From Escherichia phage SM_W22, in sequence record PP920555.1: DNA of 44,245 bases, one strand, 5' to 3'. Positions 5,812 to 42,920 of this stretch are shown piece after piece. The notes under the pieces were generated by a model. The model saw only the letters and a list, made by a program, of their open reading frames with translations, was not told the DNA's origin and did no database searches. Both the position numbers and the translations under genes were made by a program. How positions within the stretch are numbered: position 1 is the stretch's first letter; each line of letters starts with the position of its first letter.

Positions 5812-5854
5812 TTTTGTGTCCTCGTTGTTGGGGCTTTCGCCCCTGTTGGTTTAG

Positions 5855-6373
5855 TTAAAGTGCTTCTAGAATCTCGTAAAACTTATTTGCCAGCGCTTGG
5901 CGGCGTTCGAATTTTTCAGTGATAACCAATTCCGGGCGGTTAAATAGCTTTGCGTGGGTGTTCCAATTGAGGATTTCCGTTTCCATTATTTTCTTCCTGT
6001 CCAGCGCTTGGCGGCGTTCGAATTTTTCAGTGATAACCAATTCCGGGCGGTTAAATAGCTTTGCGTGGGTGTTCCAATTGAGGATTTCCGTTTCCATTAT
6101 TTTCTTCCTGTTGTAGTCGGTGTTTTTGATGCTAAATTCCTTGATAGCGTCATTAAGAAAATCAGTCATACACTCAACGTCTGTTCTCTTAACTTCGAAC
6201 GTACGGGACTCGATTGGGCTATTTGTGCGAAGTACGACGACTCCGCCGTGGTAGGTGTCGACTACCATATACTTATAAGTCACCCCATCCCACTCCGGAT
6301 CGAAAGGGCGCCCAAATACGTCGTCGGCTTTCCACACTTTCTGGTACGGTGTTTCTTTAATTAATGTTGGCAT
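5855..6373 (-). CDS. Hypothetical protein with internal 37-aa tandem duplication (moron)
   Basis: Track ORF 5855..6826 trimmed to Met at 6373 (upstream part is antisense of scaffold gene region); repeat KKIMETEILNWNTHAKLFNRPELVITEKFERRQAL occurs twice. Confidence 0.55.
   Translation of the reverse strand: MPTLIKETPYQKVWKADDVFGRPFDPEWDGVTYKYMVVDTYHGGVVVLRTNSPIESRTFEVKRTDVECMTDFLNDAIKEFSIKNTDYNRKKIMETEILNWNTHAKLFNRPELVITEKFERRQALDRKKIMETEILNWNTHAKLFNRPELVITEKFERRQALANKFYEILEAL
5890..6111. repeat. Perfect tandem direct repeat, 2 x 111 bp, in frame within minus-strand ORF
   Basis: Bases 5890-6000 and 6001-6111 read identical base for base; duplication also visible in translated ORF. Confidence 0.9.
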
Positions 6374-24772: not shown

Positions 24773-25327
24773 TTATTTCAGTGCGCCAGTCACCAGTGTT
24801 TTTTCCATGTTGCGGAAGTCTTCCGGCGTCATGAGGATTTTGGACCCATCCTCGCCAGTGAGCACGACCATAGGCTGGACGTCCTGGGCTACGACGCCGA
24901 AATCGGCGGCTTTAACAGTCTTCCCGAACGAGGCTACCACACCCTCGGCAACGCGCATTGCACTGTTATACGCATTAATCTCGCCGTCAAGACGCACGGA
25001 CAGATCTTTGAGGCTTTCAAACTGTTCTGCCGTTGTATCGATCTGAATCTCGTCGTGTACGGTCATGTACGACTCGCCCAGCAAAGCCGCATACGCTACC
25101 AGGTCGACGATATTGTCTTCCTGGTGCTTACGGTGCTGGCGCACCAGCTTCAGGCAGATCAGGAAGGTCCATGCTTCTTGCTCGGTCAGGTCGCGACCGG
25201 TAAGCGCGTTAAACACGGCGGCAATTTGTTTCGCGCTGCGTTCCTCTTTCGCGTTGTCATAGCCGTTTGCTTTCCCGCGCTGTTCCATAGTGGTGGCGGC
25301 GTTTTTGCAGTATTCGTATGCTTTCAT
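24773..25327 (-). CDS. Hypothetical protein
   Basis: 184 aa ORF with protein-like composition; no motif confidently recognised. Confidence 0.5.
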   Translation of the reverse strand: MKAYEYCKNAATTMEQRGKANGYDNAKEERSAKQIAAVFNALTGRDLTEQEAWTFLICLKLVRQHRKHQEDNIVDLVAYAALLGESYMTVHDEIQIDTTAEQFESLKDLSVRLDGEINAYNSAMRVAEGVVASFGKTVKAADFGVVAQDVQPMVVLTGEDGSKILMTPEDFRNMEKTLVTGALK

Positions 25328-25379
25328 GATGTTTTCCTTTTTAGTGGGAGGCGGTATTGCCCCCGACGAGTTAACTATA

Positions 25380-25403
25380 TTGCAACCAACCTATTGGTTG
25401 CAA
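25380..25403. promoter_or_regulatory. Palindromic pair of TTGCAACCAA motifs
   Basis: TTGCAACCAA-ccta-TTGGTTGCAA perfect inverted repeat; third partial copy TTGCAACG about 10 bp downstream. Confidence 0.45.
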
Positions 25404-25723
25404 GTGAATTTTGCAACGTTTATTGCGTAAATTTTCGGAACCAGATCGCCACACGCCCGACGAATTGCCGCGATGTTCTTCTCGCAATCTTCAATGATGA
25501 CCAGTTCCGACACGTCTGCGTAGCAGACCATTTTGAACACGGCGCACGCCTTAAACTCTGGCGGCGGGGTGTCGTCCAGCATGTGGCGCATGAACAATCG
25601 ACCTACGGGGAAGACCTTCAGTTGTTCGGCGGTCGTGTCCCAACATTCGCGCTGCCGGTTTGTCAGATACGCGATCTCGAAGCCTTGCTCTTTGTACATG
25701 CGCAGCAGCGGCAGCATATCCAT
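25391..25723 (-). CDS. HAD-like hydrolase C-terminal portion (gene appears frameshifted relative to upstream ORF 25551..25937)
   Basis: LPLLRMYKEQGFEIAYLTNRQ and MLDDTPP resemble HAD motifs II-IV; an N-terminal VDRDPAVVD motif-I-like segment lies in another frame upstream. Confidence 0.4.
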   Translation of the reverse strand: MDMLPLLRMYKEQGFEIAYLTNRQRECWDTTAEQLKVFPVGRLFMRHMLDDTPPPEFKACAVFKMVCYADVSELVIIEDCEKNIAAIRRACGDLVPKIYAINVAKFTCNQ

Positions 25724-25917
25724 GTTCAGATCTTCGCGGACGTGCGCTTCGCGCAGTAAAGGAGTTGCACACGAAATGGCAACGCTGAGTCATGACAAGC
25801 CAACCGGTGAGGTCAAGGCCCAGGATGTATTCGGGGCGAGACGCGCGCACCACACGATTGCGTCGCGGGTCAATACCGTAGTCTTTTTGCATTTGGTCTA
25901 CTACCGCGGGGTCGCGG

Positions 25918-26403
25918 TCAACGATTAAGATATTCAAGGAGTTCTCCTTCGCTCATTATTTCAATTTGTGCGCTGCCGATGGGCGGCGCTTCGTCAAATA
26001 TTATCAATTGCTGGCATTTGTTATTGCTCGGCCCGACTTCACCGGTGACGGCGTGAATGAATCTAATCCGCCAGTCCAGAAGAATTATCAGGTTTGCAGT
26101 CTTCCGGGCCATCCTCGCCCACTTCGTCGACGTGTCCTGATTCAGCAGCATGACAGTCCGGCGTCCGTGCGCCGCGCACTCTACCCACGGCAGCGGATCG
26201 GAATACGGCGGATTGCACCACTTCCACCCTTTCAACTCGGACCAGTCCACATCAAGCGCGCTATGTTCTGCTGTGAAGTAACGCGGTAGCAGGTGGTTGG
26301 CATCGCTTGCCGCCATATCGTAACGGAATCGGTATTTCCGACGAAGCGGTTTGAATAAAGCTGGCGGCGTGCGCCAGCTATCTTTTTGCTCACTCTCCGT
26401 CAT
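25918..26403 (-). CDS. DNA N6-adenine methyltransferase (phage Dam family)
   Basis: WRTPPALF near N-terminus and NPPYS catalytic motif; track ORF trimmed to Met at 26403 giving a 14-nt overlap with upstream gene. Confidence 0.75.
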   Translation of the reverse strand: MTESEQKDSWRTPPALFKPLRRKYRFRYDMAASDANHLLPRYFTAEHSALDVDWSELKGWKWCNPPYSDPLPWVECAAHGRRTVMLLNQDTSTKWARMARKTANLIILLDWRIRFIHAVTGEVGPSNNKCQQLIIFDEAPPIGSAQIEIMSEGELLEYLNR

Positions 26404-29647: not shown

Positions 29648-29821
29648 TTATTTTTGCTCTGCGCGGTAGCGGCGCTGCCGTTCGCGCTCTTTTTTATTGC
29701 GGCACGATTTGCACTCCGCCCGATACCCGTCCGGGCTACGCGCAGTCTTGCCGGTGTATTTGTGGAACTGGGATAGCGGTTTAACGCAGCCGCAATTACT
29801 GCAACGTTTTTCTTCGATCAT
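29648..29821 (-). CDS. Zinc-ribbon protein (CxxC...CxxC)
   Basis: 57 aa from Met with GAGGA RBS; CSNCGC...ECKSC motif similar to N-terminal Zn modules of phage nucleases. Confidence 0.45.
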   Translation of the reverse strand: MIEEKRCSNCGCVKPLSQFHKYTGKTARSPDGYRAECKSCRNKKERERQRRYRAEQK

Positions 29822-29861
29822 CTCTAAAATCCTCGATATGGCTAACCGGCACACTATACCG

Positions 29862-30140
29862 CTATGCGACCAACTCAGCAACCAATAAATCACAGTCGGC
29901 TATGTTGTCAATAACGCGAACGTCGGCGCCGCGGCGAGCCATCCGCTCATGCTCTCGCACCTGGTGCGGCTTCGGTTTTCCTCCTGGGCGCTTCACTTCG
30001 ACGAATACTATGATGCCGTTGATGATGATAATCAGGTCGGGCGCACCTGCGCGCCCCTCCCATGCCACTTTGCGGCAGAATCCACCCACCGCTTTCACCC
30101 GACGCATCAGGTAGCGTTGAATCTTGCCTTCTGGAGTCAT
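29862..30140 (-). CDS. VRR-NUC domain nuclease
   Basis: GAPDLIII...VFVEVKRPGGKP...Q pattern of PD-(D/E)XK VRR-NUC domain; 92 aa. Confidence 0.65.
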   Translation of the reverse strand: MTPEGKIQRYLMRRVKAVGGFCRKVAWEGRAGAPDLIIIINGIIVFVEVKRPGGKPKPHQVREHERMARRGADVRVIDNIADCDLLVAELVA

Positions 30141-30328
30141 TTGGTTTGCAACTCCACGTTGCGCAGACAGAGGTCAACCGGTATGTCCGACCGACCGGTT
30201 AGCGCCAGCGCCAGGTTTTCAGGCGTGACAAGTGCCGTTATGGTTTTGCCACGTTCCAGTCTAATGACGATTCGAATCTCGTCTTTGTCCGCCGCGCCCG
30301 CGCGCATTATGCTAATTTCTGCTTTCAT
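30137..30328 (-). CDS. Hypothetical small protein
   Basis: 63 aa from internal Met of track ORF 30137..30400 (upstream part overlaps DNA polymerase end). Confidence 0.35.
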   Translation of the reverse strand: MKAEISIMRAGAADKDEIRIVIRLERGKTITALVTPENLALALTGRSDIPVDLCLRNVELQTK

Positions 30329-30359
30329 AATCTTATTTCCGTTAAATGCAACATTTCCG

Positions 30360-32651
30360 CTACTTGCGGTAGCGATACATGCAATCGCCTTCCGCGGCAA
30401 GCGGGAACCCTTTCGCCCAAATCGGCAGGTCGCACATCAGCGCGCAAAGTTCCTCGACAGTGTAGTCGTCAGTGTCTGGAACTTCGGTTATCAATTCATC
30501 ATGCACCGATAGAACGATTTCATAGCCCGCAGCTTCAACGCCAGGCATTGACCAGGCGAGAATATCACGGCACAACGCCTGTACTATGTTCTCCGTCAGT
30601 TTGCCGCCGTAGGTATACTGGAAGCCCCACTGGCGCGTCGTCTGATTCTCGCCCTGATATTTAATGCGGGTGCTGGTGCGTTTCTTGCCGGTATCTTCGT
30701 CGATCTCGGTCGTCACTGACAGCGCAATGCCTGGATAACTCATAATACGCCCCGACGGCAACTCAATTTTCAACCACCACCCCGCGGCGTTCGGGTCGTC
30801 GCGTTCCTCGTCGAAGGTTGGGTCATGCTTCGCCTTCGTGCGGACTATCTTGAGCGCTTTCTTACCATCCGGGCGAACGTTCGCGCCAGCCCAGTACGCT
30901 TTGCCCGGATTGCGGATTGCACACAACACCGCGTCCTCAAGCTCGGCCCAAAAGGCTACCGTCTTCGGGTGCGCCTCACGCCACATACGTTTGATTGCGT
31001 CACAAGTAAGCCATACGTTTTTCGGCAGTATGTAAGTCGGGCGCTCGTCCTTCTTGCCCGGCTTCGGCGGTCGCTTCGCTTCGTTAATTCGGGCGTACTC
31101 ATAACCCCGTTTAGCCGCTGCCCAAATGTGATCGGGGAATGTGCCCTTCATGACGTCCGCCATCGCGTAAAGGTCGAGGCCCAGGTTTTTAGCGAACTGC
31201 AAGAACGCAGCCACGCCGCCGCCATAGCCAAGTCCCAACTCACACGCCTTACCAATCTGGCGTAGGTCTTTGCGGTTGGCTTTAATGTATTCCGGGTCAA
31301 GGCCGAACATCTTACCGGCAGTTTCACAATAAATATCGCGACCGGCCCTAAACACCATTAGCGCGGTTTTCTCACCAGCGATCCAGGCGAGGCCACGCCC
31401 TTCCACGTTAGAGTAGTCCGCTACGACAAACTTCTTGCCCTTAGCCGGGATAATGCACCCGCGAACGGTCGAGGCTGTTAGCTTAGATATGTCATACGCC
31501 CAGTGCGCGGTCCCGCGTAACAGGGAATTGATGCCGTTGGTGAGCATGTGCGACCGGACCCAAAACGAGACGTCGCTCTCGCCTTCGCGGCGCTTAATCT
31601 TCCCTTCGTGGTCGTCGCTATACTCGCCGCGTGCCAGGTTTTGAGGCTGGAAGCCTTTACCGGCCCAGCGTAGCGTGCGCTTTGCACCACCATACTGAAG
31701 ACACCCACGGCGTCTACCATCGGCAGACAGACCATTAACGAGCGGATTGTACTTAGTCGATGCCGTTGACGACGCGCCGAGGCGCATTTCGATAAGCGCT
31801 TTGCCTTCGTCGGGGAAGTCCGGGTCTTCAAGCAAGTCGTTAAGTGTGGATTTCTGCGCGTTGTGGATCGTGAACGCCGGGGCGATATCACGCAGGATTG
31901 GCAGGAAGTCATTGCCTGTCAGCTTACCGCCAAATCGCTCCCAGGCTTCTTCCTTCAATTCTTCCTTATGCGCCTGTACCGCTTTGATCGCGGCGTTCGC
32001 CAGGTCAACGTCAACGTAGAAGCCGCGGTCGTTAATCAACTGGTCGATGAGCAGGATTTCATCTTCCTTCGGTGAGTTGCCCCAGTCCGGTATGCGCCAG
32101 TAGACTTCACGCATGGCAACAATATCCAGCGCGGCATAGCGCAAGAATTTGGCCCATTCTTCGGGGTGCGTCTCGCGTGTGTAGCGGCGGATTTTGTAGG
32201 TCTTAGGGGTGGGCTTACAGAATCGTTTAATCAGCGCCTTGCCTGCCTTATCTTTCGCGTGCTCTGCGTCAACGCCCAGCACCTGACACTGCATATCGAG
32301 GCTACCAGGCAGCGCGTGGCGAAAGGCCATAATCATTGTGTCTTCGATCTGGCTTACCGGCAGGTCAATACCCCACTTCTCGCGGATAACCAAGCGGTCA
32401 AACAGGAGGCCGTTAGCCATCACGATTTTTGCTTTCTTGCGGGATACCTGACGGAGCGCCTTGCGCAGTTCACGCGGCATTGTTGGGGATTCAGTAGCAT
32501 CCCATATCTGCACGCGGCCCTCGTCGATGGCGTATGTGCAAATCATAATCTCGGTGGTTGGGTGCTCTGCGTAGGCGTACGCCCCTACTTTCTTCAGGTC
32601 CACCCCGCTAAATGTCTCGGTGTCGAGAAACAGGCGTTCGAAGTCTTTCAT
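30360..32651 (-). CDS. DNA polymerase, family A, with 3'-5' exonuclease domain
   Basis: 763 aa; N-terminal exonuclease motif DTETFSG, C-terminal polymerase region with conserved acidic motifs (VHDELI). Confidence 0.9.
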   Translation of the reverse strand: MKDFERLFLDTETFSGVDLKKVGAYAYAEHPTTEIMICTYAIDEGRVQIWDATESPTMPRELRKALRQVSRKKAKIVMANGLLFDRLVIREKWGIDLPVSQIEDTMIMAFRHALPGSLDMQCQVLGVDAEHAKDKAGKALIKRFCKPTPKTYKIRRYTRETHPEEWAKFLRYAALDIVAMREVYWRIPDWGNSPKEDEILLIDQLINDRGFYVDVDLANAAIKAVQAHKEELKEEAWERFGGKLTGNDFLPILRDIAPAFTIHNAQKSTLNDLLEDPDFPDEGKALIEMRLGASSTASTKYNPLVNGLSADGRRRGCLQYGGAKRTLRWAGKGFQPQNLARGEYSDDHEGKIKRREGESDVSFWVRSHMLTNGINSLLRGTAHWAYDISKLTASTVRGCIIPAKGKKFVVADYSNVEGRGLAWIAGEKTALMVFRAGRDIYCETAGKMFGLDPEYIKANRKDLRQIGKACELGLGYGGGVAAFLQFAKNLGLDLYAMADVMKGTFPDHIWAAAKRGYEYARINEAKRPPKPGKKDERPTYILPKNVWLTCDAIKRMWREAHPKTVAFWAELEDAVLCAIRNPGKAYWAGANVRPDGKKALKIVRTKAKHDPTFDEERDDPNAAGWWLKIELPSGRIMSYPGIALSVTTEIDEDTGKKRTSTRIKYQGENQTTRQWGFQYTYGGKLTENIVQALCRDILAWSMPGVEAAGYEIVLSVHDELITEVPDTDDYTVEELCALMCDLPIWAKGFPLAAEGDCMYRYRK

Positions 32652-40354: not shown

Positions 40355-40624
40355 ATGGGACGTAGACGAGCAAAACAGCTTTCGTGGCATATTCCCCTGC
40401 ATTGCATACGAATATGGGCTGAGAATGCAGTTGAGGGCGATTCTGTGTACTGGTGCTATCGCGACGACGTAAAGCCGTTGACGCAGACTCGCTACTTGCA
40501 CCAGTTCGCAGCACAACACGATTTCAGGGTGCGGACTTCCTTGCAACCAATGGGGATTCGTATTACATTACGCCGGAAGCCCGCCGTTGAGCGGGTAGGC
40601 AAACACTGGAGACTGAGCAAATGA
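40355..40624 (+). CDS. Hypothetical protein
   Basis: 89 aa basic ORF; contains TTGCAACCAAT motif near its 3' end. Confidence 0.4.
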   Translation: MGRRRAKQLSWHIPLHCIRIWAENAVEGDSVYWCYRDDVKPLTQTRYLHQFAAQHDFRVRTSLQPMGIRITLRRKPAVERVGKHWRLSK

Positions 40625-41166
40625 AATTACTATTCCGCCGCAACCACGACGGCTGTATCGTGGAGCCGGTCCAGGTAATGGCCTTGACTAAGAACGTGCT
40701 CCTATGCCACCAGGCAAGCGGCAAAGTATTCCGCACGCCAACCAGCACGCTGCCGCAGTTCTTCACAGTCCACACCCACGATATTGAGCGCGGCGATGTG
40801 CCGCGTAATATTCGCGACGGGCAACTGTGGGTCGTCGAGTACACCTCCCAGCACGGCTTGCGTATGCAGACCCGCAAGGGCGGCGTATCGGGCAACATGA
40901 TTAGGGGTATGACGTACTTCGGGCTAATCCACTACGAGCGCGTGGGGCGCAAGTACAGACTCCGCAAGTCGCAGCCAGCCTATGCGACCTACGACGCCCA
41001 CCAGGTGCAAGCGAAGATGGGCCGTGCCATACACGAAATCGTCAATCGCTTTGATGCCGTCACGAATGCACAGCGCCATGCGCAGGAATATGGCGTGGGG
41101 CTTATCCGGGTAGAACAAGACGGCAGCATGAAAGCTATCGACCCGCGCTCGGTGATTCTGAAATGA
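40621..41166 (+). CDS. Hypothetical protein
   Basis: 181 aa ORF, ATGA-coupled to upstream ORF. Confidence 0.5.
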   Translation: MKLLFRRNHDGCIVEPVQVMALTKNVLLCHQASGKVFRTPTSTLPQFFTVHTHDIERGDVPRNIRDGQLWVVEYTSQHGLRMQTRKGGVSGNMIRGMTYFGLIHYERVGRKYRLRKSQPAYATYDAHQVQAKMGRAIHEIVNRFDAVTNAQRHAQEYGVGLIRVEQDGSMKAIDPRSVILK

Positions 41167-42736: not shown

Positions 42737-42752
42737 TACGAGGTGACACGAT

Positions 42753-42920
42753 ATGTTAAAAAGTATTCTTGATCATAATGCGGACGCGCTCGCCGCGCTG
42801 GCTAAAACCGAAGACCCTGGCGCACGCGCTATCATCGCGGACACTATCAGCCATGCAGGCGTCTTTGACGCGAAGCTGCCTAGCCCGCCGCCACAGGAAG
42901 AATCTGACCCAGTGACGTAA
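42753..42920 (+). CDS. Small hypothetical protein (coordinates approximate)
   Basis: About 55 codons after AGGTGA RBS, ending just before terminator; below track cutoff. Confidence 0.3.
   Translation: MLKSILDHNADALAALAKTEDPGARAIIADTISHAGVFDAKLPSPPPQEESDPVT

What the first reader, a model, noticed from the sequence alone, without database searches (positions are those of the whole stretch)
25391..25937. HAD-like hydrolase gene split across two reading frames
ORF 25551..25937 begins protein-like (LIVDRDPAVVD resembles a deoxyribonucleotidase-type HAD motif I) and then degenerates into Arg/Ala-rich low-complexity sequence. The overlapping ORF 25391..25723 in another frame carries HAD motif II-IV-like segments, and its frame is open upstream to about 25790. 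One frame change near 25790 would give an intact enzyme of about 180 aa. This is a pseudogene, a sequencing indel or a programmed frameshift.
Basis: seen in the sequence. Interest (0 to 1): 0.45.

Follow-up and report, generated by a model that had tools for sequence, protein, structure and literature searches.

The report
Deletion fusing ksap1 and phosphatase genes
This is not one enzyme gene broken by a frameshift: a 145-base deletion in an E. coli phage genome has joined the tail of a small gene (ksap1, a published trigger of the bacterial Avs2 immune sensor) to a beheaded neighbouring phosphatase gene, and whether the phage gains anything from this is untested.

Summary
The two overlapping minus-strand ORFs exist as described, and the second one is HAD-like. 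They are remnants of two separate genes, not halves of one.

The window is a Dhillonvirus-type coliphage genome. In about 140 relatives the locus holds ksap1 (74 aa) and a 156-aa phosphatase of the T4 Pnkp type, overlapping by ATGA. The window lacks 145 bp between two AAGCGC(N)CGT repeats, with the junction at 25744-25749.

- **Lost from ksap1:** the last 8 codons and the stop.
- **Lost from the phosphatase:** codons 1-38, which carry the start and the real motif I (DLDGV).
- **Result:** 145 = 3n+1, so ksap1 (66 native residues) reads on into 62 out-of-frame Arg/Ala-rich residues. The phosphatase remnant has no nucleophile and is dead.

"LIVDRDPAVVD" is strand 1 of Ksap1, not HAD motif I. No single frame change restores an enzyme.

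Ksap1 is the published trigger of Klebsiella and E. coli Avs2, and laboratory escape phages carry deletions at this locus. Independent natural deletions across the same junction occur in phage Bas16 and in metagenome contigs. An immune-escape reading is therefore plausible but untested here; neutral loss is equally possible.

This junction was found nowhere else. It is a new allele of a known locus, of modest interest.

The parts
25551..25937 (-). Fusion ORF of 128 aa: ksap1 codons 1-66 followed by 62 out-of-frame codons read from the phosphatase remnant, then a stop
   Evidence: ORF list. It matches phrog_10685 over positions 1-66 of 74, E 1.7e-40. It is 86% identical over 66 aa to SECphi18 Ksap1. 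A strong AAGGAG lies 6 nt before the TTG start.
25740..25937 (-). Native part of ksap1 (residues 1-66), the Avs2-stimulating protein. The predicted C-terminal helix (62-73) is cut after residue 66.
   Evidence: Alignments A1 and A4, translation, AlphaFold model of the family with pLDDT 95.6, and identity with the published Ksap1 locus.
25744..25749 (-). Deletion junction. One copy of AAGCGC (minus strand) remains where relatives have two copies 145 bp apart (AAGCGCCCGT and AAGCGCACGT).
   Evidence: Alignment A1 and the script, which gives a repeat spacing of 145 and the flanking sequences. No other record joins these flanks.
25551..25739 (-). Out-of-frame Arg/Ala-rich tail of the fusion ORF (62 codons plus stop). 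It is a by-product of reading the phosphatase remnant in the wrong frame.
   Evidence: Translation. The tail has no counterpart in any of 51 Ksap1 homologues, all of them 74 aa.
25391..25747 (-). 5'-truncated remnant of the Pnkp-type HAD phosphatase gene: codons 39-156 plus stop. The start codon, D7, D9, R19 and W33 are gone.
   Evidence: Translations. phrog_415 E 1.9e-20. It is 98% identical to the intact 156-aa P0001.
25374..25403 (-). Conserved palindrome TTGCAACCAA-N4-TTGGTTGCAA overlapping the phosphatase stop codon and a promoter-like site for the next gene. Context only; the deletion does not touch it.
   Evidence: the sequence is invariant in alignment A1.

Best explanation
**What is there.** The region holds what is left of two adjacent, separately translated genes of a Dhillonvirus operon on the minus strand: Dam methyltransferase, ksap1, phosphatase, DUF6378 gene.

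**The event.** A 145-bp deletion occurred between two short direct repeats (AAGCGC exact, 9 of 10 over AAGCGCNCGT). That repeat structure is the signature of replication slippage or microhomology-mediated recombination. The deletion removed the last 8 codons and the stop of ksap1. It also removed the first 38 codons of a 156-aa HAD phosphatase of the T4 Pnkp type. Those 38 codons include the start codon, the nucleophile Asp and acid/base Asp of motif I (DLDGV), and an invariant Arg.

**Consequences for the ORFs.** Because 145 = 3n+1, ksap1 now reads through into the phosphatase remnant in the wrong frame. This gives a 128-aa ORF: 66 native residues plus 62 residues of nonsense. The remaining 118 phosphatase codons have no native start and no catalytic aspartates, so the enzyme is lost. 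Up to this point the account is shown by the sequence comparisons.

**Inferred steps.**
- The deletion is recent, because the remnant shows no further decay.
- Ksap1 function is probably impaired, because its conserved C-terminal helix is cut.
- The phage tolerates both losses, as relatives with similar lesions do.
For: **Two genes in relatives.** Relatives carry two genes, 225 nt and 471 nt, overlapping by ATGA. Alignment A1 shows a clean 145-bp gap in the window flanked by the repeats.

**Prevalence of the intact gene.** 159 of 189 phage records cover at least 80% of the 156-aa protein. All 14 IMG/VR loci have it intact.

**The phosphatase family.**
- phrog_415, E 6e-37.
- AlphaFold model with pLDDT 95.3.
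- Best structural matches are Pnkp1 and the T4 Pnkp 3'-phosphatase domain, 5uj0 with TM 0.72/0.78.
- A profile of the family against PDB hits Pnkp1 at E 5e-18 and T4 Pnkp at 2e-12.
- In that alignment D7, D9 and R19 align to T4 Asp165, Asp167 and Arg176.
- Asp165 is the covalent nucleophile and Asp167 the general acid/base in T4 Pnkp (PMC3592404).
- D7, D9, R19, R69 and D125 are invariant in 39 homologues.

**The segment is truly gone.** The deleted 145 bp and the N-terminal 38 residues occur nowhere else in the window.

**Assembly quality.** Apart from these two genes, every SM_A8 gene aligns full length or nearly so in the window, except a handful that are absent, replaced, or differ in repeat copy number. 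Nothing else looks frameshifted, so this is not an error-ridden assembly.

**Recency.** The remnant differs from phage TheodorHerzl by 13 synonymous and 0 non-synonymous codon changes, and dN/dS against other relatives is about 0.01-0.08.

**Comparable lesions in viable phages.** Bas16 has a 337-bp deletion, phage rolling a 100-bp deletion, and SM_A8 a nonsense codon at position 119.
Against: No reads were available, so a mis-assembly or a minority variant captured as the consensus cannot be excluded. The junction is unique to this window in every collection searched, so there is no independent confirmation. A weak GAAG lies 8 nt before the internal ATG at 25723, so low-level translation of a 110-aa fragment cannot be excluded, although it would lack the nucleophile.
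Confidence: 0.9

Rival explanations
1. The deletion is an adaptive immune-escape allele. It was selected because it disrupts the C-terminal helix of Ksap1, the protein that Avs2 sensors bind to trigger abortive infection. The phosphatase was lost as collateral damage.
For: **Published biology.** Ksap1 is the 74-aa protein between the methyltransferase and the phosphatase. KpAvs2 binds it directly. All six laboratory escapers were mutated in ksap1, including partial deletions of ksap1 together with part of a neighbouring gene (PMC11564622). EcAvs2 is also activated by Ksap1, and the flanking helices are predicted to face the sensor (bioRxiv 10.64898/2026.04.30.721860).

**This window.** The deletion cuts helix 62-73. 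It removes the invariant residues E71 and L73 and the near-invariant L69, I70 and K74.

**Natural parallels.**
- Independent deletions cross the same ksap1-phosphatase junction in Bas16, whose Ksap1 neither binds nor activates KpAvs2.
- Such deletions also occur in two ENA samples and one Logan assembly.
- A ksap1 frameshift at about codon 58 occurs in IMG/VR locus L017.
Against: There is no functional test. The residues known to matter (L39, L47, T50, F60) are all retained; only K30 is V. Phage rolling and SM_A8 have lesions in the phosphatase alone with ksap1 intact, so the phosphatase decays on its own, and neutral loss explains the window equally well. Bas16 Ksap1 also differs by point substitutions, so its non-recognition cannot be pinned on the truncation.
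Confidence: 0.3
2. It is a sequencing or assembly artefact: the real phage has both genes intact.
For: The junction was found in no other record, and no read data could be checked.
Against: A 6-10 bp repeat is far too short to collapse in an assembly. Apart from these two genes, no SM_A8 gene looks frameshifted in the window; the few that do not align full length are absent, replaced, or differ in repeat copy number. A 145-bp loss bounded by a direct repeat is typical of real deletions. Similar real deletions exist in deposited isolates.
Confidence: 0.07
3. It is a programmed ribosomal frameshift or a single-base indel in one HAD gene of about 180 aa.
For: The two ORFs overlap in different frames, and the N-terminus has a superficial hhhhDxD pattern.
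Against: The two parts are separate genes in all relatives. The true motif I lies in the missing 145 bp. The DxD pattern of Ksap1 is not conserved. The HAD profile does not recognise Ksap1. Joining the frames near 25790 would insert an out-of-frame ksap1 translation that has no homology to the phosphatase family.
Confidence: 0.01

Closest known systems
Ksap1 (KpAvs2-stimulating protein 1) of Dhillonvirus phages such as SECphi18, and the ksap1 deletion escapers described by Bechon et al. 2024 (PMC11564622)
   Same: The synteny is the same: Dam methyltransferase, then the 74-aa gene, then the phosphatase. The retained 66 residues are 86% identical to SECphi18 Ksap1. The lesion is a deletion covering part of ksap1 and part of a neighbouring gene, as in the published escapers.
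   Different: This is a different phage lineage and a different deletion, found in a deposited-type genome rather than selected in the laboratory. Only the last 8 residues are replaced, and a 62-aa tail is added. The effect on Avs2 recognition is untested.
3'-phosphatase domain of T4 polynucleotide kinase-phosphatase, and Pnkp1 (DxDxT acylphosphatase / HAD superfamily; PDB 5uj0, 1ltq, 4xrp)
   Same: Intact orthologues share the fold (TM 0.72/0.78 to 5uj0). They share the DxDGT/V, S/T-x-R, K and DD motifs in the same order. The family profile hits Pnkp1 at E 5e-18.
   Different: The phage protein is a stand-alone phosphatase domain of 156 aa with no kinase domain, and its substrate is unknown. 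In the window the first 38 residues, including both catalytic aspartates, are deleted, so only a dead remnant remains.
Escherichia phage GeorgBuechner (Bas16) ksap1-phosphatase junction deletion
   Same: It is a natural deletion that starts within the codons of the Ksap1 C-terminal helix and runs into the phosphatase gene.
   Different: It is 337 bp rather than 145 bp, with different end points. Its Ksap1 ends at 64 aa instead of being extended by an out-of-frame tail.

Membership tests
HAD superfamily, T4 Pnkp-type 3'-phosphatase (phrog_415) | Motif I DxDx(T/V), carrying the nucleophile Asp and the acid/base Asp | tested here: not met
   Motif I is present as DLDGV (D7, D9) in all intact orthologues and aligns to T4 Asp165/Asp167. 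It is absent from the window in every frame because it lies in the deleted 145 bp.
HAD superfamily, T4 Pnkp-type 3'-phosphatase (phrog_415) | Motif II (S/T), motif III (K) and motif IV (acidic pair), in order | tested here: met
   The remnant keeps LTNR (T67, R69), K104 and IIEDC (D125).
HAD superfamily, T4 Pnkp-type 3'-phosphatase (phrog_415) | Significant sequence match to family models | tested here: met
   phrog_415 gives E 1.9e-20 for the remnant and 6e-37 for the intact orthologue. The family profile against Pnkp1 gives E 5e-18. Pfam models stay below their gathering scores: PF03767 scores 23.8 against a cut-off of 27, and PF25109 scores 12.7 against 27.6.
HAD superfamily, T4 Pnkp-type 3'-phosphatase (phrog_415) | Rossmannoid HAD fold | tested here: met
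   This was tested on the intact orthologue P0001 only: AlphaFold pLDDT 95.3, and Foldseek top hits 4xru, 5uj0 and 1ltq. The window's remnant lacks strand 1 and the first helices.
HAD superfamily, T4 Pnkp-type 3'-phosphatase (phrog_415) | Phosphatase activity on 3'-phosphate ends or nucleotides | not testable with these tools
   This needs an enzyme assay. No published assay of the Dhillonvirus protein was found.
Ksap1 (phrog_10685) | Sequence similarity to SECphi18 Ksap1, and position between the Dam methyltransferase and the phosphatase in a Dhillonvirus | tested here: met
   57 of 66 residues are identical. phrog_10685 gives E 1.7e-40. Synteny is shown.
Ksap1 (phrog_10685) | Complete 74-aa protein with a conserved C-terminal helix | tested here: not met
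   51 of 52 homologues are exactly 74 aa. E71 and L73 are invariant. The helix spans 62-73. The window replaces residues 67-74 with a 62-aa tail.
Ksap1 (phrog_10685) | Binds and activates Avs2 | not testable with these tools
   This needs co-expression toxicity or plaque assays. It is published only for the SECphi18, Bas17 and Pal009 proteins.
Programmed ribosomal frameshift | Two frames of one gene, joined at a conserved slippery site in orthologues | tested here: not met
   Orthologues have two complete genes, each with its own stop and start. The overlap of frames in the window is created by a deletion that is unique to it.

The most novel reading that the evidence does not exclude
The 145-bp deletion is a naturally selected escape allele. 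By breaking the C-terminal helix of Ksap1, the phage avoids detection by Avs2-type NLR-like sensors in wild hosts. The repeated, independent deletions across the ksap1-phosphatase junction (this window, Bas16, metagenome contigs) would then record an ongoing arms race, in which a conserved phosphatase is sacrificed.
Probability: 0.3. Interest if true: 0.55.

Novelty: new member of a known kind. Interest (0 to 1): 0.3.

Why it matters
For annotation, the 128-aa and 110-aa ORFs should not be called a frameshifted HAD hydrolase. They are a C-terminally altered ksap1 and a dead phosphatase remnant.

For biology, this phage lacks a phosphatase that nearly all Dhillonviruses keep under strong purifying selection. 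It also carries an altered copy of the one protein known to betray these phages to Avs2.

If the allele escapes Avs2, it would be a natural counterpart of the laboratory escapers. It would also be a ready-made reagent for asking what Ksap1 and the phosphatase do for the phage.

Tried and rejected
- **Single HAD gene with a frameshift.** Rejected by the orthologue alignment.
- **Ksap1 N-terminus as a cryptic HAD motif I.** Rejected because hhalign gives 10% probability and places the match at motif IV, and because D9 is not conserved.
- **Missing 145 bp moved elsewhere in the genome.** blastn and tblastn find only chance matches.
- **Low-quality assembly.** Apart from these two genes, every SM_A8 gene aligns full length or nearly so in the window, except a handful that are absent, replaced, or differ in repeat copy number.
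- **Other carriers of the same junction.** None was found in 133 matching GenBank phage records, in IMG/VR or in JGI metagenomes. No gene with exactly the 128-aa product is on record.
- **Exact coordinates of the published escaper deletions.** The supplementary tables of PMC11564622 are not held, so the window's deletion could not be compared base by base with the deletions the paper calls delta-1 and delta-2.
- **Single-sequence search of the intact phosphatase against PDB.** It gave nothing significant. The family profile was needed.

Full report
**Observation.** On the minus strand the window has a 128-aa ORF (25551..25937, TTG start) and a 110-aa ORF (25391..25723) in another frame. The frame of the second ORF is open up to 25789, after a stop at 25790-25792. 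The first ORF begins MNILIVDRDPAVVD... and ends in an Arg/Ala-rich stretch. The coordinates and the description are therefore correct.

**What relatives show.** The window is a complete-looking genome of the genus Dhillonvirus (HK578-like E. coli siphophages). It is collinear with phage SM_A8 and 93-94% identical to it at the DNA level.
- In relatives, the 701 bases around the finding correspond to about 846 bases.
- Gluttony_ev152, UDS3lw and TheodorHerzl annotate two genes here: a 74-aa hypothetical protein, and a 156-aa 'putative phosphatase / polynucleotide kinase-phosphatase / nucleotidase'. The two overlap by ATGA.
- The alignment shows one clean 145-bp gap in the window.
- In relatives the gap is bounded by AAGCGCCCGT and AAGCGCACGT, exactly 145 bp apart. 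The window keeps one hybrid copy at 25744-25749.
- This repeat pair exists only in the sub-lineage whose ksap1 is closest to the window's.

**What was lost.**
- From the upstream gene: codons 67-74 and the stop.
- From the phosphatase: codons 1-38, namely MKLLICDLDGVINGSSDARADLVPGIKTKSTFWAKWHK.
- Since 145 = 3n+1, the upstream gene runs on in the wrong frame for 62 codons. That is the Arg/Ala-rich tail.
- The missing DNA and peptide occur nowhere else in the window.

**The phosphatase.** The intact orthologue matches phrog_415 at E 6e-37, and the window's remnant matches it at 1.9e-20. Pfam HAD models are hit only below threshold.
- An exhaustive HMMER search found 45 relatives. In an alignment of 39 of them, D7, D9, R19, R69 and D125 are invariant, and W33, T77 and K104 nearly so.
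- The AlphaFold model has pLDDT 95.3. Its best PDB matches are Pnkp1 and the T4 Pnkp 3'-phosphatase domain (5uj0: TM 0.72/0.78, rmsd 2.5 A).
- The family profile hits Pnkp1 at E 5e-18 and T4 Pnkp at 2e-12. It aligns D7, D9 and R19 to T4 Asp165, Asp167 and Arg176.
- In T4 Pnkp, Asp165 forms the covalent phospho-intermediate and Asp167 is the general acid/base (PMC3592404).

The window's remnant therefore lacks the catalytic core and cannot be an active enzyme.

**The upstream gene is ksap1.** It matches phrog_10685. Of 52 homologues, 51 are exactly 74 aa.
- A literature search identified it. Bechon et al. [quoted passage not shown]
- Klebsiella pneumoniae Avs2 binds it directly and becomes activated. 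All six escape phages were mutated in ksap1: partial deletions of the locus, a frameshift, L47R or T50P (PMC11564622).
- The SECphi18 gene at that position has K30, L39, L47, T50 and F60, as in the paper. It is 86% identical to the window's first 66 residues.
- A 2026 preprint reports that E. coli Avs2 is also activated by Ksap1, and that its beta-sheet and flanking helices face the sensor.

**Structure of Ksap1.** The AlphaFold model of the family (pLDDT 95.6) is a small alpha/beta protein. Strand 1 covers residues 2-6 and the C-terminal helix covers residues 62-73.
- The pattern 'ILIVD' is thus the first strand of a Rossmann-like fold. That explains the resemblance to HAD motif I. The second Asp is Ser in several members, and the HAD profile does not recognise the protein.
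- The deletion cuts the terminal helix after residue 66. It removes the invariant E71 and L73 and the near-invariant L69, I70 and K74.

**Is the deletion real, and is it old?**
- Apart from these two genes, every SM_A8 gene aligns full length or nearly so in the window. The exceptions are a handful that are absent, replaced, or differ in repeat copy number. Nothing else looks frameshifted, so the assembly is not error-ridden.
- A repeat of 6-10 bp cannot cause an assembly collapse.
- The remnant still looks like a gene under purifying selection: 13 synonymous and 0 non-synonymous codon differences from TheodorHerzl, and dN/dS of about 0.01-0.08 against other relatives. The event is therefore recent.
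- The junction was not found in any of 133 matching phage records, in IMG/VR or in JGI metagenomes. The 128-aa product is not on record. Without reads, an artefact cannot be formally excluded.

**Recurrence at the locus.**
- The phosphatase is intact in most genomes: 159 of 189 records at 80% coverage or more, and 14 of 14 IMG/VR loci.
- Independent lesions do exist. Bas16 GeorgBuechner has a 337-bp deletion running from Ksap1 helix codons into the phosphatase, leaving a 64-aa Ksap1.
- Phage rolling has a 100-bp deletion inside the phosphatase.
- SM_A8 has a nonsense codon at position 119.
- Two ENA samples carry an in-frame ksap1(1-34)::phosphatase(120-156) fusion, and one Logan assembly carries another fusion.
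- IMG/VR locus L017 has a ksap1 frameshift.
- The published paper reports that Bas16 is not restricted by KpAvs2 and that its Ksap1 neither binds nor activates the sensor.

**Interpretation.**
- Shown here: a microhomology-bounded 145-bp deletion fused two genes and killed the phosphatase.
- Inferred: Ksap1 function is probably impaired, and the phage tolerates both losses.
- Open: whether the allele was selected for escape from Avs2-like sensors (I put this at about 0.3) or is neutral decay of dispensable genes. The phosphatase-only lesions in rolling and SM_A8 show that decay happens without ksap1 involvement. The known contact and escape residues L39, L47, T50 and F60 are retained in the window.

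**Novelty and score.** Both genes, their arrangement and the phenomenon of ksap1-locus deletions are published. This particular allele is new in the collections searched. It is a new member of a known kind, and interest is modest (0.3).

Noticed in passing
window 25374-25403: A perfect palindrome TTGCAACCAA-N4-TTGGTTGCAA overlaps the phosphatase stop codon and a minus-strand promoter-like site (TTGCAA-18-TATAGT) upstream of the DUF6378 gene. It is invariant in the relatives aligned. It may be an operator or promoter element.
   Followed up: no
L006 (SM_A8, PP920553.1) 25261-25731: The closest overall relative has a TAA nonsense codon at position 119 of the phosphatase, just before motif IV. 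This is an independent inactivation of the same gene.
   Followed up: partly
L004 (GeorgBuechner/Bas16) 1020-1440; L005 (rolling) 1071-1412: Two deposited Dhillonvirus isolates carry their own deletions at this locus. One is 337 bp across the ksap1-phosphatase junction. The other is 100 bp inside the phosphatase.
   Followed up: yes
L022 1501-1716, L023 48-263, L024 319-528: Metagenome and Logan contigs encode in-frame fusions of the Ksap1 N-terminus to the phosphatase C-terminus. One is a 476-bp deletion with CGTGTC microhomology, seen in two ENA samples.
   Followed up: partly
L017 (IMGVR_UViG_645948515_000001) about 1280-1504: ksap1 is frameshifted at about codon 58, apparently within a GTGTGTGTG run, which changes the C-terminal helix. 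The indel itself was not aligned against a reference.
   Followed up: partly
L021 (SECphi18, NC_073071.1) 680-904: RefSeq names Ksap1 (gp51) 'acid phosphatase', the same name as the neighbouring gp50. This looks like an annotation spill-over.
   Followed up: no
window about 30137-30436, 42747-42920, and the counterparts of SM_A8 5852-6166 and 40606-40740: Gene content differs from SM_A8 at several places. The HNH endonuclease (SM_A8 29765-30475) is absent. Two small genes have no counterpart. One ORF is 57 aa against 98 aa in SM_A8, apparently one copy of a repeat of about 43 aa.
   Followed up: no
ksap1 versus phosphatase across loci L001-L021: Ksap1 evolves several times faster than the adjacent phosphatase: dN/dS is about 0.1-0.25 against about 0.01-0.08. 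This fits pressure on Ksap1 from host sensors, but it was not tested formally.
   Followed up: partly
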